A stretch of 64,000 nucleotides of DNA from a virus (IMGVR_UViG_3300044796_000394); one strand, 5' to 3'. Positions 22,420 to 27,145 are shown, counted from the first letter of the stretch. A program made the numbers and translations. Notes: a model not told the origin generated them from the letters alone.

Positions 22420-22906
22420 ATTTATCGGACATCATGCCGGAACCTGCCCCGTATTCATTCACTTTTTTTTTAGCAGTAAAATCAGCCAATTGTTTTTTCG
22501 CAAATTCTACAACATCACTAACATGATTACACGCAGCAATTGCTGTAGGGGAATTTCTTTTTTTAGCAGCTTCTTTTTGTATTTTTTGTAATTCCTGTTT
22601 AGAAGTTTCAACTTTCTTTTTAGCTTCTTCAAATTTCTTTTGCTGGAACTCTGCTTCTTTTTTCTTCATTTCGTCTGGCGTTAACTGAATTTCATTAACG
22701 ACATAGAAACCTTCACGGGGATATTTGGCCGGTGAATAATAGCCATCATGCCTAATGTTTTGCAAAGAACAAACCTTAATGTTCCTGTCTTCCAATTTGG
22801 CATTCTTGCGGGCATTAATGTACCCCTGACTGTAAGCCTCTGCTTCAGCATAAAAAACAAAAGGCCCACCCAAATAAACGTATCGTAATTGCTTTGGCAC
22901 GATCAT
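22418..22906 (-). CDS. Hypothetical protein, coiled-coil C-terminus
   Basis: ORF; AT- and Lys-rich. Confidence 0.55.
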   Translation of the reverse strand: MIVPKQLRYVYLGGPFVFYAEAEAYSQGYINARKNAKLEDRNIKVCSLQNIRHDGYYSPAKYPREGFYVVNEIQLTPDEMKKKEAEFQQKKFEEAKKKVETSKQELQKIQKEAAKKRNSPTAIAACNHVSDVVEFAKKQLADFTAKKKVNEYGAGSGMMSDK

Positions 22907-22931
22907 TCTCTCTGGGTGGACATTAAAAAAA

Positions 22932-23086
22932 ATCTCGTTTATGGTATTTCACCACGACCGGCGTTGACACTTAACTCTATCTAACCCAGACAGACTACAC
23001 AGATAATAACCCATTGCTGTGAGGCCGATAGAGAAGTATCCGGTTTACTCATAGCCCACTCATCTCTAATGATGAGCTAACGAGAC
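22932..23086 (-). ncRNA. Putative second structured RNA
   Basis: Closing helix TCTCGTT/AACGAGA, internal hairpins (CTCATC/GATGAG; TGGT/ACCA), followed by a T8 run. Confidence 0.35.
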
Positions 23087-23164
23087 CATCATCCACTATC
23101 CGTTCCGATAACCGGCAAGAGTCGTGGATGAAAATTTCACGAAAACGGCGAAAGGTTAATGTGA

Positions 23165-23310
23165 GGGTAACATTTAGCAGATGTACTCACATCGAGATCC
23201 GTAATTCGTGATTCAAAAAGGGTTCAAAGCCCTTCGTGACTGAATGATGGAATTGAACCATCCTATCTTGTGGGTATAAACCACTGACGCCCCCGTGGCA
23301 ATTCATACCC
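23165..23310 (-). ncRNA. Candidate Y-RNA-like (YrlA-type) permuted tRNA mimic
   Basis: Starts 5 nt after the Ro60 stop; T arm GATGG-TTCAATT-CCATC, loop-closed acceptor-like stem, D-like arm with GG, helix TACCCACA/TGTGAGTA, terminal GGGTA/TACCC. Confidence 0.62.
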
Positions 23311-23315
23311 ATATA

Positions 23316-24929
23316 TTACTCTTCATCACCTTCATCTTCAATAGAAGATTTTCGCAGGTGTTTACCGTCTAAATCAATCTTCACAATCTCGCCCACAACA
23401 TGGTCGGCATCCATATTGCCATCAACGAATTGCTTAACCAACTTGAAGACGTTGTCACTAAACCCGCCAAGGTTCAGAACATCCTTCATTTCCTGTACTT
23501 GCGTAGTGGCGTACGGTGCTACGTCGATACAAACCAACTTCGCCTTCGGATTACGCTGCTTCCAACGCTTCCATTCGGCTTGGAATTGACTCTCACCCTT
23601 CAATCTCTTACCGTACCGATCCGTATTCAACGATTCACACCAAGATTGATTGTCCGATACGCAGATCAGCAAATCGCCAACCCTGTTCGCATCGTTCAAC
23701 AACTTAAGTGGCGCCCAACAAGCCGTACCACCATCCGCAATCTTACCGATTGCCGACGCATTCGCCATCACAGATTGCTCCGGATCGACATTGAATGGTA
23801 CAACATGCTTTTGGAAGAACATCATTTCAGCGTTCGGATTGTTTCTCTTGAAACAAGACGCAATCAGCGCAGCCACATCCACACAACGAGTTACCGTTGA
23901 AGCCGATCCACGACCGCCCGTCACTGGGTACGTCATGGACTTGGAAACATCGGTAAAGACGTACGCAGGAACGCTATCCTTGTAATGCGTCTCAAACGAC
24001 GGAATGTTGCGAGTAGCAATCTCCATCGCCCGTTCCAAACCATCCCGCAACTCGACAGGCACACCAACGGTATTTTGGTACGCCGTCATAATCTGATACG
24101 GAAATACGGAAGCCTTTTTGATCGACACAGGATCAGCCAAGCGGTTTGCAAGCAATTCAACCATCCCCGGCACGTTAAACACACCTTGTCGTTGAAGAGT
24201 TGCCAGATTACGGAGCAACCAGAACCAGCTCGCCTTTTGAGCGATTTCGGCCCATTGATCGGTGCCTAACTTTTTGGCAGTATACATACGGAAATCCGTC
24301 TTCGGCATTTCCTTAGTTTCGCCCTTCTTCCACGCTTCGTAAACCTTAACCGATTCCGGCAACGCATCATGGTTAAATGGTCGGTCAACCATCATACCAT
24401 AAAGGGCGGAACGAGTCTTATCCAATGGGCGTGGGTGAATGTTCTTCAAGATCGTCTTGAGAGAAGGCGTACCGACGCTCTGTTGCCAGATTTCCGTAGG
24501 CGTACGGCTATTCAACCAATTAACCATTAACTCTTTTGGAACGGTTCCAAAAGACTTACGACCGGTCTTGCCAGATCGAATGATTTGGTAGAAATTGCGG
24601 AACATCGTGCCATCGTTAATGACACGTACGAAAGTCTTACGAAGCAGCTTCGTTTCCTTGCGTGCAGCTAATACAGCGCATAACAAGGCCGGAACATCCT
24701 TCATAAAGTACAATTCACGGCTGAACACGGCACACTGCGCCACGAATTCAGGCTCCACAATCATTGCGGCATTTTGAATTTGATCTAGCTGTTTCTTGGC
24801 ACTCACGTAAAGCGTGTTGCCGAGACATGAAGTCGTGCTGAGTAAAGCAAGGGTTTGCTTGGGCGTTAATTGATACGCTACACCACCAGCCTCATTGAAA
24901 GAATCCAAAGAACTAAATAACTTATTCAT
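23316..24929 (-). CDS. Ro60/TROVE-domain RNA-binding protein (Rsr-like)
   Basis: NEAGGVAY, LRNLATL, VFPYQI, vWA DVSKSM, GGT...PL, VSDNQSW, GGFSDNVF. Confidence 0.93.
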   Translation of the reverse strand: MNKLFSSLDSFNEAGGVAYQLTPKQTLALLSTTSCLGNTLYVSAKKQLDQIQNAAMIVEPEFVAQCAVFSRELYFMKDVPALLCAVLAARKETKLLRKTFVRVINDGTMFRNFYQIIRSGKTGRKSFGTVPKELMVNWLNSRTPTEIWQQSVGTPSLKTILKNIHPRPLDKTRSALYGMMVDRPFNHDALPESVKVYEAWKKGETKEMPKTDFRMYTAKKLGTDQWAEIAQKASWFWLLRNLATLQRQGVFNVPGMVELLANRLADPVSIKKASVFPYQIMTAYQNTVGVPVELRDGLERAMEIATRNIPSFETHYKDSVPAYVFTDVSKSMTYPVTGGRGSASTVTRCVDVAALIASCFKRNNPNAEMMFFQKHVVPFNVDPEQSVMANASAIGKIADGGTACWAPLKLLNDANRVGDLLICVSDNQSWCESLNTDRYGKRLKGESQFQAEWKRWKQRNPKAKLVCIDVAPYATTQVQEMKDVLNLGGFSDNVFKLVKQFVDGNMDADHVVGEIVKIDLDGKHLRKSSIEDEGDEE

Positions 24930-25946: not shown

Positions 25947-26260
25947 AATTTTCCCATACAAACCCGACAACGCCAACAGGGGTGACTCCACGCTATTGTT
26001 TTCTCTGCTGATCTTTTTTGTCGCCACGCCGTTTCATCGGTCAAAATGTCAATAAAAGGTATATCATCAAGGCGTTTTTCAGCTTTGCGATACTTACAGC
26101 ATTTTTTAGGATTGGTCAACTTAGAATTAACAAAGTAGATGATTTCTGCGTTACGGGTACGAAGTATCTTATCAGCATCCGCTTCTACCAGTTGGATTTG
26201 CGAAGGCTCACAATCCATTGATTCAGGAATGTCTCGTCGCAAGCTTCCGGTAGTTTCCAC
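25943..26260 (-). CDS. Hypothetical Cys-containing protein (start uncertain)
   Basis: Fills the gap and ends in an ATGA overlap with purN. Confidence 0.4.
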   Translation of the reverse strand: METTGSLRRDIPESMDCEPSQIQLVEADADKILRTRNAEIIYFVNSKLTNPKKCCKYRKAEKRLDDIPFIDILTDETAWRQKRSAEKTIAWSHPCWRCRVCMGKL

Positions 26261-26934
26261 GGCTTTAACTCCTCGATAGCAGCGACTCGTTCGTCGACCA
26301 TTGCTTCGATAGCAGGGAAATCGTACTCATAACGGCGAATTGCCATTAAGAAAGCACGCTCTTCATTATCTTTCCAAATAACCGGATCACCACCTTGAGC
26401 AATCCTCGATGCATCGCCCAACAACCTAAAGATGTGATAAGCAAAGTTTTCAGAACTCTTTTTAGCCTCGTAGGATCGTCGCAAATGTGACATTTGACCG
26501 TCAGCGAATCCTAAGTAATGCTTAACAACTTGTTGCGTGAGAAATTGAGATTTGATTGAGCGAAGCTCTTCCCATTCAGATGACCACTCAGCATTCTTCT
26601 CGGTAAAAAGCATTTCAATGATGGTCGGATTGCCCTTAACTAGAAGTTTGCTGAACTTCAAAACTTCATAAAAAGCATGATCAGGGTATTTGCCTTTATC
26701 TCGCTTTTTGTCGTCATGACAGACAGAATCCAATTCCGCCGTGTCGTAATTTAATGCCACAACATCACGGGTAGGGACAATGTACACGCCCGCATAATCC
26801 CGGTCACTTAACAGGTGATGGGTATTGTGGCAGCGACTCCCGGCGAGTTTGCCGAAAATGACACGACCCGGCATAGGGCGGCTTTTCAAAAACTGCCTGT
26901 AGCCGGGTTCTTCGTCAGTGAGTAAGTTTTTCAT
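26185..26934 (-). CDS. DNA polymerase beta-superfamily nucleotidyltransferase (RlaP/YcgL-like)
   Basis: GSRCHNTHHLLSDRDYAGVY, KGNPTIIEML, YHIFRLL; start moved to ATG 26934, right after the upstream TAA. Confidence 0.85.
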   Translation of the reverse strand: MKNLLTDEEPGYRQFLKSRPMPGRVIFGKLAGSRCHNTHHLLSDRDYAGVYIVPTRDVVALNYDTAELDSVCHDDKKRDKGKYPDHAFYEVLKFSKLLVKGNPTIIEMLFTEKNAEWSSEWEELRSIKSQFLTQQVVKHYLGFADGQMSHLRRSYEAKKSSENFAYHIFRLLGDASRIAQGGDPVIWKDNEERAFLMAIRRYEYDFPAIEAMVDERVAAIEELKPWKLPEACDETFLNQWIVSLRKSNW

Positions 26935-26935
26935 C

Positions 26936-27145
26936 TTAGCCCTGCAGTCCAATGACACGACCTTCATCGTTTCGCACGACAACCTTGCCGGGCGGATTGT
27001 GCTTGGCATCATCATCCGCTGCCTGCACGAGCGTACGACAATGAGCAAGGTTGGACAAAGCCAATGTCCGCTCTGGTGAGTTGGGGAGAGATCCAATCTC
27101 TCCCCGAAGGTTAACAAACAAAGCGGCCATTTTCGTGTTTTTCAT
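26936..27145 (-). CDS. Small hypothetical protein
   Basis: Operon tiling. Confidence 0.55.
   Translation of the reverse strand: MKNTKMAALFVNLRGEIGSLPNSPERTLALSNLAHCRTLVQAADDDAKHNPPGKVVVRNDEGRVIGLQG

What the first reader, a model, noticed from the sequence alone, without database searches (positions are those of the whole stretch)
23165..24929. Phage Ro60 followed immediately by a permuted tRNA-mimic RNA (YrlA-type)
Seen on the minus strand, 5 nt after the Ro60 stop, in order: GGGTA; helix strand TACCCACA (23276-23269); 6-nt variable-like linker; T arm GATGG-TTCAATT-CCATC (23262-23246); acceptor-like stem ATTCA/TGAAT closed by hairpin AAGGG-CTTTGAA-CCCTT; 2 nt; D-like arm CGA-ATTACGGATC-TCG; one A; TGTGAGTA, which pairs with TACCCACA (one C-A mismatch); TACCC. 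Known: YrlA RNAs sit next to rsr and have this T-acceptor-D order opened at the anticodon. Caveat: the GNCGAAN(0-1)G Ro-site consensus is not evident, so this may be a divergent class.
Basis: partly seen in the sequence, partly recalled or inferred. Interest (0 to 1): 0.8.

Follow-up and report, generated by a model that had tools for sequence, protein, structure and literature searches.

The report
Phage Ro60 with Y RNA, not permuted
A 430-kb phage encodes the RNA-binding protein Ro60 and, right behind it, a partner "Y RNA", which is a known kind of pairing. The RNA is a short Y RNA hairpin preceded by a worn-out ordinary tRNA-like element, not the rearranged tRNA mimic that was proposed.

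Summary

The proposed fold does not hold. A covariance model built from 46 Y RNA cores at related Ro60 loci, with the window left out, gives one hit in the 64-kb window: 23213-23135 (-), 32.7 bits, E about 1e-6. This is a YrlB-type Y RNA core with these parts:
- stem P1;
- a loop that aligns to the family's G-R-A-U-G-C box;
- stem P2 (UGUGAG/CUCACA);
- the UACAU box;
- a small apical hairpin.

The T arm is real. Both ARAGORN (at 90% of its default threshold) and the Rfam tRNA model (14.1 bits, below threshold) place it in an ordinary-order, degenerate tRNA-like element at 23308-23236. That element pairs ATTCA with the upstream TGAAT. A real tRNA directly followed by a Y core recurs at related loci.

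A second Y core lies 145 kb away in the same genome, abutting tRNA-Pro. Among 144 aligned cores, only this phage's two copies lack the otherwise invariant G of the AUGC box.

Verdict: a new, divergent member of a known kind.

The parts
23316..24929 (-). Ro60 (TROVE + vWA) gene, 537 aa
   Evidence: Pfam vWA_Ro60 1.4e-14 and TROVE 7.3e-7. There are 2521 homologues at E<=1e-20, the closest at 69% identity. The best named phage relative is Myxococcus phage Mx1 at 41.6%.
23236..23308 (-). Degenerate, ordinary-order tRNA-like element (tRNA-Ile(UAU)-like). Parts: acceptor-like TGAAT 23305-23301 with ATTCA 23245-23241; U8-like T 23300; anticodon-like arm GTGG-TTTATAC-CCAC 23284-23270; T arm 23262-23246. 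The D arm is decayed.
   Evidence: ARAGORN calls it at 90% of the default threshold but not at default. Only 8 extra calls appear genome-wide at that setting. The Rfam tRNA model covers 23305-23241 at 14.1 bits against a gathering score of 29, model positions 3-68. It aligns colinearly with real tRNAs that precede Y cores elsewhere.
23246..23262 (-). T arm GATGG-TTCAATT-CCATC (5 bp stem, 7-nt loop matching the T-loop consensus)
   Evidence: Read directly. Pairing probability 0.83; z = -2.5. It is rare outside tRNA genes in this genome.
23271..23311 (-). Alternative fold of the same bases: a 14-bp hairpin, TGGGTATGAATTGC with GTGGTTTATACCCA. It is mutually exclusive with the cloverleaf-like fold.
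   Evidence: It is the minimum-free-energy fold of 23313-23268: -18.9 kcal/mol, z = -3.08, 1 of 200 shuffles as good. It is about 10 kcal/mol better than the cloverleaf by nearest-neighbour energy.
23218..23234 (-). Hairpin AAGGG-CTTTGAA-CCCTT (5 bp, 7-nt loop of anticodon-loop shape, CU NNN AA), lying between the tRNA-like element and the Y core
   Evidence: Pairing probability 0.96-0.99. The role is not established.
23135..23213 (-). Y RNA core of the short (YrlB-like) type. P1: 23208-23199 with 23148-23140 (RNAfold extends it to 23210/23138). 5' loop AUCUC 23198-23194, aligned to the family's AUGC box. P2: GAUGUGAG 23193-23186 with CUCACAUU 23165-23158. UACAU 23185-23181. Apical hairpin ACAU-CUGCUAA-AUGU. 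3' loop ending UUCG 23157-23149.
   Evidence: Model R1 was built without the window. It gives 32.7 bits, E 1.4e-6, the only hit in 64 kb; the next best is 14.6 bits. The same model gives 170 hits in 86 of 100 related Ro60 loci, all on the Ro60 strand. Covariation: 18 of 18 pairs show double changes, score 0.757 against 0.203 for shuffles and 0.10-0.16 for slid partners. RNAfold alone gives the same structure, z = -4.57, 0 of 200 shuffles as good.
22925..23134 (-). Further structured non-coding block that ends in a run of 8 T (22932-22925). It is probably part of the same transcript and was not resolved here.
   Evidence: No ORF of 40 aa or more. Hairpin CATCCAC/GTGGATG z = -2.4; the 149-nt domain z = -3.0. 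No hit of R1 or R2.

Best explanation
The phage makes its own Ro60 ribonucleoprotein. The 410-nt non-coding stretch behind the Ro60 gene has no intrinsic terminator before the T8 run, so it is probably transcribed with the gene. It carries three elements in order:
1. a degenerate, ordinary-order tRNA-like element with an intact T arm;
2. a small hairpin;
3. a short Y RNA (YrlB type).

In the Y RNA, the 5' and 3' ends form stem P1, an asymmetric internal loop carries the family's Ro box, and a second stem P2 is capped by UACAU and a small hairpin.

By analogy with bacterial and phage Ro60/Y RNA complexes, Ro60 binds the P1/loop region. The apical part would be free to recruit a partner such as the host's PNPase, steering degradation or repair of structured RNA during infection.

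The tRNA-like element is a relic, or a still-used version, of the tRNA-then-Y-core tandem seen at many related loci. In those tandems tRNA-processing enzymes would set the Y RNA's 5' end.

Shown here: the gene, the conserved core with its covariation, and the tRNA-like alignment. Inferred: transcription, processing, Ro60 binding and PNPase recruitment.
For: - Ro60 domains.
- Core found by a model that never saw the window: 32.7 bits, E 1.4e-6, unique in the window. There is one further copy in the 430-kb genome.
- The family is real and tied to Ro60: 170 hits, all on the Ro60 strand, in 86 of 100 loci.
- Strong covariation in P1 and P2.
- The closest homologue, L009:1843-1921, differs in P2 by a compensatory U-A to A-U change.
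- RNAfold gives the same fold on its own, z = -4.57.
- True YrlA RNAs (Rfam, 70-80 bits) occur behind related Ro60 genes.
- The tRNA-like reading comes from two programs.
- Seventeen cases of a real tRNA directly followed by a Y core, including tRNA-Ile(tat) in L047 and tRNA-Pro in this genome.
- Phage Ro60 binding phage Y-like RNAs together with host PNPase is shown experimentally for Thermus phage phiLo (PMC12135203).
- Y RNAs next to Ro60 were reported in 22 phages (PMC4201824).
Against: - The core scores at the low end of its family (30-77 bits).
- It has C-U where 142 of 144 relatives have G (and 138 have C) in the AUGC box, so Ro60 binding cannot be taken for granted.
- The tRNA-like element is below the threshold of both tRNA programs. 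Its D arm is decayed and only 5 of 7 acceptor pairs form.
- A 14-bp hairpin using the same bases is about 10 kcal/mol more stable.
- The T arm is not conserved in the closest available relative, L009.
- There are no expression data.
Confidence: 0.78

Rival explanations
1. One reading: one RNA of about 145 nt (23310-23165) is a YrlA-type, circularly permuted tRNA mimic. Its order is T arm, closed acceptor stem, D arm. It is closed by TACCCACA/TGTGAGTA and GGGTA/TACCC.
For: - All the strings exist.
- The T stem runs straight into ATTCA, as in YrlA and tRNA.
- A TGAAT lies downstream, and GG occurs in the proposed D loop.
- True YrlA RNAs occur behind related Ro60 genes.
Against: - No Rfam YrlA match at any threshold.
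- The clade-specific YrlA model drops its tRNA module and aligns to the short core instead.
- A sequence profile of YrlA finds nothing.
- The D arm and the 3' strand of the closing helix lie inside the covarying P1, loop and P2 of the core.
- The D arm has a 3-bp stem and lacks the near-invariant GUAGCUCA...GGUAGAGC of the clade's YrlA RNAs.
Confidence: 0.04
2. Only the Y core is functional. The T arm region is a decaying tRNA pseudogene, or simply a stable 14-bp hairpin plus a chance T-like hairpin, with no role in the RNP.
For: - Sub-threshold tRNA scores.
- Decayed D arm and two mismatches at the top of the acceptor stem.
- The competing 14-bp hairpin is the minimum-free-energy fold.
- No conserved counterpart in L009.
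Against: - The T stem and T loop are perfect. A chance occurrence within about 400 nt on the given strand is of the order of 1e-3.
- The acceptor-like, anticodon-like and T elements are colinear with real tRNAs.
- tRNA-then-core tandems are common in the clade.
Confidence: 0.15
3. The whole 390-nt spacer is one large nested RNA. It would be closed by its two ends (GGUAU/UUGCCACGG/GGCGU at 23309-23286 with 22965-22942), with the Y core and the other hairpins inside.
For: The minimum-free-energy fold of the 421-nt stretch uses this 19-bp closure. A GAAUUGC string resembling the Ro box sits in its 5' strand.
Against: - The duplex energy (-26.1 kcal/mol) is reached by 8.9% of random genome windows of the same length.
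- It competes with the local 14-bp hairpin.
- Neither model finds a core using these strands.
Confidence: 0.03

Closest known systems
YrlB-type short Y RNAs of bacteria (S. Typhimurium YrlB, M. smegmatis YrlB; Chen et al. 2014, PMC4201824)
   Same: - Encoded next to Ro60 on the same strand.
- The 5' and 3' ends pair into a stem carrying the Ro box.
- No T-AS-D module inside the stem.
- Can sit in tandem with other Y RNAs or tRNA-like RNAs on one precursor.
   Different: - The Ro box reads ACGGAUCU rather than GNCGAAN(0-1)G.
- The G that is invariant in 142 of 144 relatives is C here.
- The element is carried by a 430-kb phage.
- Binding to Ro60 is untested.
YrlA (Rfam RF02553), the tRNA-mimicking Y RNA
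   Same: - Same outer frame: P1, Ro box, P2, YUAY/UACA box, and the CUUG-type box before the 3' strand of P1.
- Same gene neighbourhood.
- A tRNA-type T arm is present nearby.
   Different: - In YrlA the T arm, closed acceptor stem and D arm lie inside P2.
- Here the T arm lies 5' of P1, in an ordinary-order tRNA-like element.
- There is no canonical D arm.
- The Rfam model does not match.
Thermus phage phiLo Ro60 with Yrl1/Yrl2 (PMC12135203)
   Same: A phage-encoded Ro60 with phage-encoded Y-like RNAs close to the gene. That paper shows binding to the RNAs and a ternary complex with host PNPase.
   Different: - The Ro60 proteins are only about 23% identical.
- The phiLo RNAs lie upstream of the gene and were picked by a CGAA motif, which this RNA lacks.
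Ordinary tRNA genes and tRNA pseudogenes of large phages
   Same: - T arm, acceptor-like pairing, U8 and a 7-nt anticodon-like loop with U33 and A37, in the normal order.
- The genome carries 37 tRNAs and a tmRNA.
   Different: - Below the threshold of ARAGORN (default) and Rfam tRNA.
- The D arm is decayed.
- Two mismatches at the acceptor end.
- It is probably not chargeable.

Membership tests
YrlA (Rfam RF02553; Chen et al. 2014) | Encoded within about 4 kb of Ro60 on the same strand | tested here: met
   The RNA elements start 5 nt after the Ro60 stop, on the same strand.
YrlA (Rfam RF02553; Chen et al. 2014) | Match to the family covariance model at its gathering score (69 bits) | tested here: not met
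   No match at the gathering score or at E<=10, in the window, in the 191-nt region or at the locus in the whole genome. Related loci score 70-80 bits.
YrlA (Rfam RF02553; Chen et al. 2014) | Near-invariant T and D stem-loops with an acceptor-like stem-loop between them, all enclosed by the Ro-binding stem | tested here: not met
   The clade model R2 aligns only after deleting 72 module positions. The T arm appears as a separate 6.4-bit local hit outside the stem. No GUAGCUCA...GGUAGAGC D arm is present.
YrlA (Rfam RF02553; Chen et al. 2014) | GNCGAAN(0-1)G motif near the 5' end | tested here: inconclusive
   The aligned segment reads UACGGAUC. The C, G and second A are kept. The first A is G, compensated by its partner C as in 14-15 of the 144 aligned relatives. 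The final G is C.
YrlA (Rfam RF02553; Chen et al. 2014) | YUAY box at the start of the V region | tested here: met
   UACAU at 23185-23181, aligned to columns that are 141-144 of 144 conserved.
Short Y RNA core of this Ro60 clade (model R1, YrlB-like) | P1 and P2 helices in register with the family | tested here: met
   Full-length alignment at 32.7 bits with two non-canonical positions in P1. The family helices covary. RNAfold reproduces them.
Short Y RNA core of this Ro60 clade (model R1, YrlB-like) | A-U-G-C box in the 5' internal loop | tested here: not met
   The window has A-U-C-U. G is present in 142 of 144 and C in 138 of 144. The only two cores without the G are the two copies in this phage.
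Short Y RNA core of this Ro60 clade (model R1, YrlB-like) | Y-U-Y-G box before the 3' strand of P1 | tested here: met
   The window has U-U-C-G. The family has CUUG or CUCG, with C at the third position in 21 of 144.
Short Y RNA core of this Ro60 clade (model R1, YrlB-like) | Bound by the cognate Ro60 | not testable with these tools
   Needs EMSA or co-purification.
tRNA | Cloverleaf accepted by tRNA finders at their normal thresholds | tested here: not met
   ARAGORN at default finds none. Rfam tRNA gives 14.1 bits against 29. It is called only at 90% of the ARAGORN threshold.
tRNA | T arm with G53, U54-U55-C56-R57-A58 and C61 | tested here: met
   GATGG-TTCAATT-CCATC.

The most novel reading that the evidence does not exclude
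This phage lineage may have re-tuned its Ro60/Y RNA recognition. Both of its Y RNA cores replace the otherwise invariant G-C of the Ro box with pyrimidines. Its Ro60 differs at four residues that are invariant in its 15 nearest relatives (N37G, E45K, W179M, C358S). That could make a private pair that does not cross-talk with a host Ro60 or host Y RNAs. In addition, the tRNA-like element may stay fused 5' of the Ro-binding stem. That would give a tRNA-mimic Y RNA of a different topology from YrlA.
Probability: 0.2. Interest if true: 0.55.

Novelty: new member of a known kind. Interest (0 to 1): 0.35.

Why it matters
Ro60/Y RNA particles are an RNA quality-control system shared by animals, bacteria and some phages. 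This locus adds a very large phage that also carries RtcB, RlaP, 37 tRNAs and a tmRNA.

Three points are useful beyond this one locus:
- The Rfam YrlA model misses most Y RNAs of this Ro60 clade, whereas a simple core model finds 170 of them.
- Y cores are often placed directly behind tRNA genes, which suggests how they are processed.
- The two cores of this phage are natural variants at the most conserved base of the Ro box. That gives a direct handle on how Ro60 recognises its RNA.

Tried and rejected
- DNA search of the phage collection with the locus: no match.
- Ro60-based scan of viral contigs with the single protein: nothing.
- Pattern scan for close relatives of the core in viral contigs: nothing.
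The contigs of the closest Ro60 proteins (69%, 65% and 60% identity) could therefore not be fetched, and covariation of the T arm region could not be tested.
- nhmmer profile of YrlA on the spacer: no hit.
- blastn-short of the spacer against all loci: nothing useful.
- Long-range closure of the whole spacer: not significant, p about 0.09.
- The core as a dispersed phage repeat: rejected, since only two copies exist in 430 kb.
- The T arm as part of a called tRNA gene: rejected at default thresholds.
- Apical loops as universal anticodon-loop mimics: only partly borne out.

Full report
**What is there.** The window is part of a 430-kb virus record. The ORF at 23316-24929 (-) encodes a 537-aa protein with the Ro60 vWA domain (1.4e-14) and the TROVE domain (7.3e-7). 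It has thousands of homologues, the closest at 69% identity. The best named phage relative is Myxococcus phage Mx1 at 41.6%. Behind the stop codon lie about 410 nt with no ORF of note, up to the next gene at 22906. This stretch folds better than shuffles, z = -3.8.

**Known models.** Rfam gives no match in the window at gathering scores. The YrlA model gives nothing at the locus even at E<=10, whether on 1.2 kb, on 191 nt or on the whole genome. ARAGORN at default finds no tRNA in the window.

**Relatives.** Using an alignment of the 16 closest Ro60 proteins, I fetched 80 metagenome loci and 26 viral loci. T arms cluster just downstream of Ro60 on the same strand in most of them. Rfam YrlA matches some at 70-80 bits, so this Ro60 clade does carry true YrlA RNAs.

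A simpler unit recurs far more often. Its parts, in order, are:
- the 5' strand of stem P1;
- the box G-R-A-U-G-C;
- the 5' strand of stem P2 (typically YGGGAC);
- the box UACAU;
- a variable apical module, which is either a plain hairpin or a T-arm or full tRNA-like module;
- the 3' strand of P2;
- a box CUUG or CUCG;
- the 3' strand of P1.

YrlA is this frame with the T-AS-D module inserted. The short form corresponds to YrlB-type Y RNAs (PMC4201824).

**Test on the window.**
- I built model R1 from 46 short cores, none from the window. With filters off, R1 has one significant hit in the 64-kb window: 23213-23135 (-), 32.7 bits, E 1.4e-6. The next best is 14.6 bits.
- On 100 related loci the model gives 170 hits at E<=1e-3. 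All are on the Ro60 strand, in 86 loci.
- On the 144-sequence alignment, all 18 pairs show changes on both sides. The covariation score is 0.757, against 0.203 for shuffles and 0.10-0.16 for slid partners.
- RNAfold on 23213-23135 alone returns the same structure, z = -4.57.
- The closest relative, L009:1843-1921, differs in P2 by a compensatory U-A to A-U change.

The proposed D arm (23208-23193) is the 5' strand of P1 plus the Ro-box loop. TGTGAGTA (23191-23184) is the 5' strand of P2, whose true partner is CUCACA at 23165-23160. TACCC (23169-23165) lies in the apical region.
Forcing the closing helix costs 15 kcal/mol.
- A model of 29 full YrlA RNAs of this clade (R2) matches the window only by deleting its tRNA-like module, at 23209-23137 (16.9 bits). 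It sees the T arm as a separate weak local hit.
- A sequence profile of YrlA finds nothing.

**The T arm.** GATGG-TTCAATT-CCATC fits the T-loop consensus exactly. The strict pattern is expected about 1.75 times per genome by chance. Most of the 52 copies found lie in tRNA genes or the tmRNA.

It can equally pair with an identical TGAAT upstream (23305-23301), which gives the ordinary tRNA order. Two programs choose the ordinary order:
- ARAGORN at 90% of its threshold calls a 73-nt tRNA-Ile(UAU)-like cloverleaf at 23308-23236. Only 8 extra calls appear in the whole genome at that setting.
- The Rfam tRNA model aligns 23305-23241 to model positions 3-68 at 14.1 bits, below its threshold of 29.

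The D arm is decayed and the two outermost acceptor pairs are mismatched, so this is a tRNA-like element or pseudogene, not a working tRNA. The same bases can also form a 14-bp hairpin (23311-23271, z = -3.1) that is about 10 kcal/mol more stable by nearest-neighbour rules. I cannot decide between these two folds without closer relatives.

**Why a tRNA-like element sits there.** At related loci a bona fide tRNA is directly followed by a Y core (gap -9 to +24 nt) in 17 cases, including tRNA-Ile(tat) in L047 and tRNA-Pro in L013 and L035. This phage has a second core at 387417-387498 of its genome (31.6 bits), abutting the 3' end of tRNA-Pro(tgg). The window therefore shows the same tandem, with a decayed tRNA.

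**A lineage-specific twist.** In the 144-sequence alignment the G of the AUGC box is present in 142 sequences. The two exceptions are exactly this phage's two cores (C and U), and both also have U for the following C. Both copies keep P1, P2, UACAU and the 3' box. The change therefore looks retained rather than decay, possibly matched by changes in the phage Ro60. That protein differs at four positions that are invariant in its 15 nearest relatives. This remains a lead only.

**Mechanism.** Binding of Ro60 to the stem and box, and tethering of PNPase by the rest of the Y RNA, are established for bacteria (PMC4201824 and the work cited there). They are also established for phage phiLo (PMC12135203). 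Applying them here is inference. The genome also encodes RtcB and, two genes upstream of Ro60, an RlaP-family protein, which fits an RNA repair and turnover theme.

**Verdict.** The specific permuted YrlA architecture is not supported. The locus is a divergent new member of a known kind.

Noticed in passing
L115:218-299 (G000:C1:387417-387498, outside the window): A second Y RNA core in the same phage genome, 145 kb from Ro60, at 31.6 bits. It starts at the 3' end of tRNA-Pro(tgg) in the tRNA cluster. Its Ro box reads GAAUUU instead of GAAUGC.
   Followed up: partly
Alignment A5 (144 cores from L009-L114, window, L115): The G of the AUGC box is invariant except in this phage's two copies. The pair closing P1 switches A-U to G-C in 14 sequences, with no unpaired cell among the 143 distinct rows.
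   Followed up: yes
L047:4392-4572, L013:55-198, L035:4310-4496, L105 (several), L027:4397-4624: Real tRNA genes directly followed by Y RNA cores (gap -9 to +24 nt): 17 cases. This suggests co-transcription and end formation by tRNA-processing enzymes.
   Followed up: partly
window 23170-23184, 23218-23234, 23270-23284, and apical hairpins of many loci: Small hairpins with 7-nt loops of anticodon-loop shape (pyrimidine, U, three bases, purine, any). All 11 seven-nt apical loops found by folding have U at position 2, but only 11 of the 36 short apical modules that gave a hairpin (82 were examined) have a 7-nt loop.
   Followed up: partly
window 23316-24929 (protein positions 37, 45, 179, 358): The phage Ro60 differs from a residue invariant in its 15 nearest relatives at N37G, E45K, W179M and C358S. 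These were not mapped onto a structure.
   Followed up: no
window 22925-23134: Further structured non-coding RNA after the Y core: hairpin CATCCAC/GTGGATG, then a domain of about 150 nt, then T8. It contains a UAGCUCA string like the 5' half of a D arm. Neither Y RNA model hits it.
   Followed up: partly
window 26185-27117 (-) and G000:C1:416418-417515: An RlaP-family protein (RNA repair pathway nucleotidyltransferase) lies two genes upstream of Ro60. An RtcB ligase gene lies elsewhere in the genome. The genome also has 37 tRNAs and a tmRNA.
   Followed up: partly
L014:2068-2563, L015-L018:4080-4680: Arrays of five to seven tandem short Y cores behind a single Ro60 gene.
   Followed up: no
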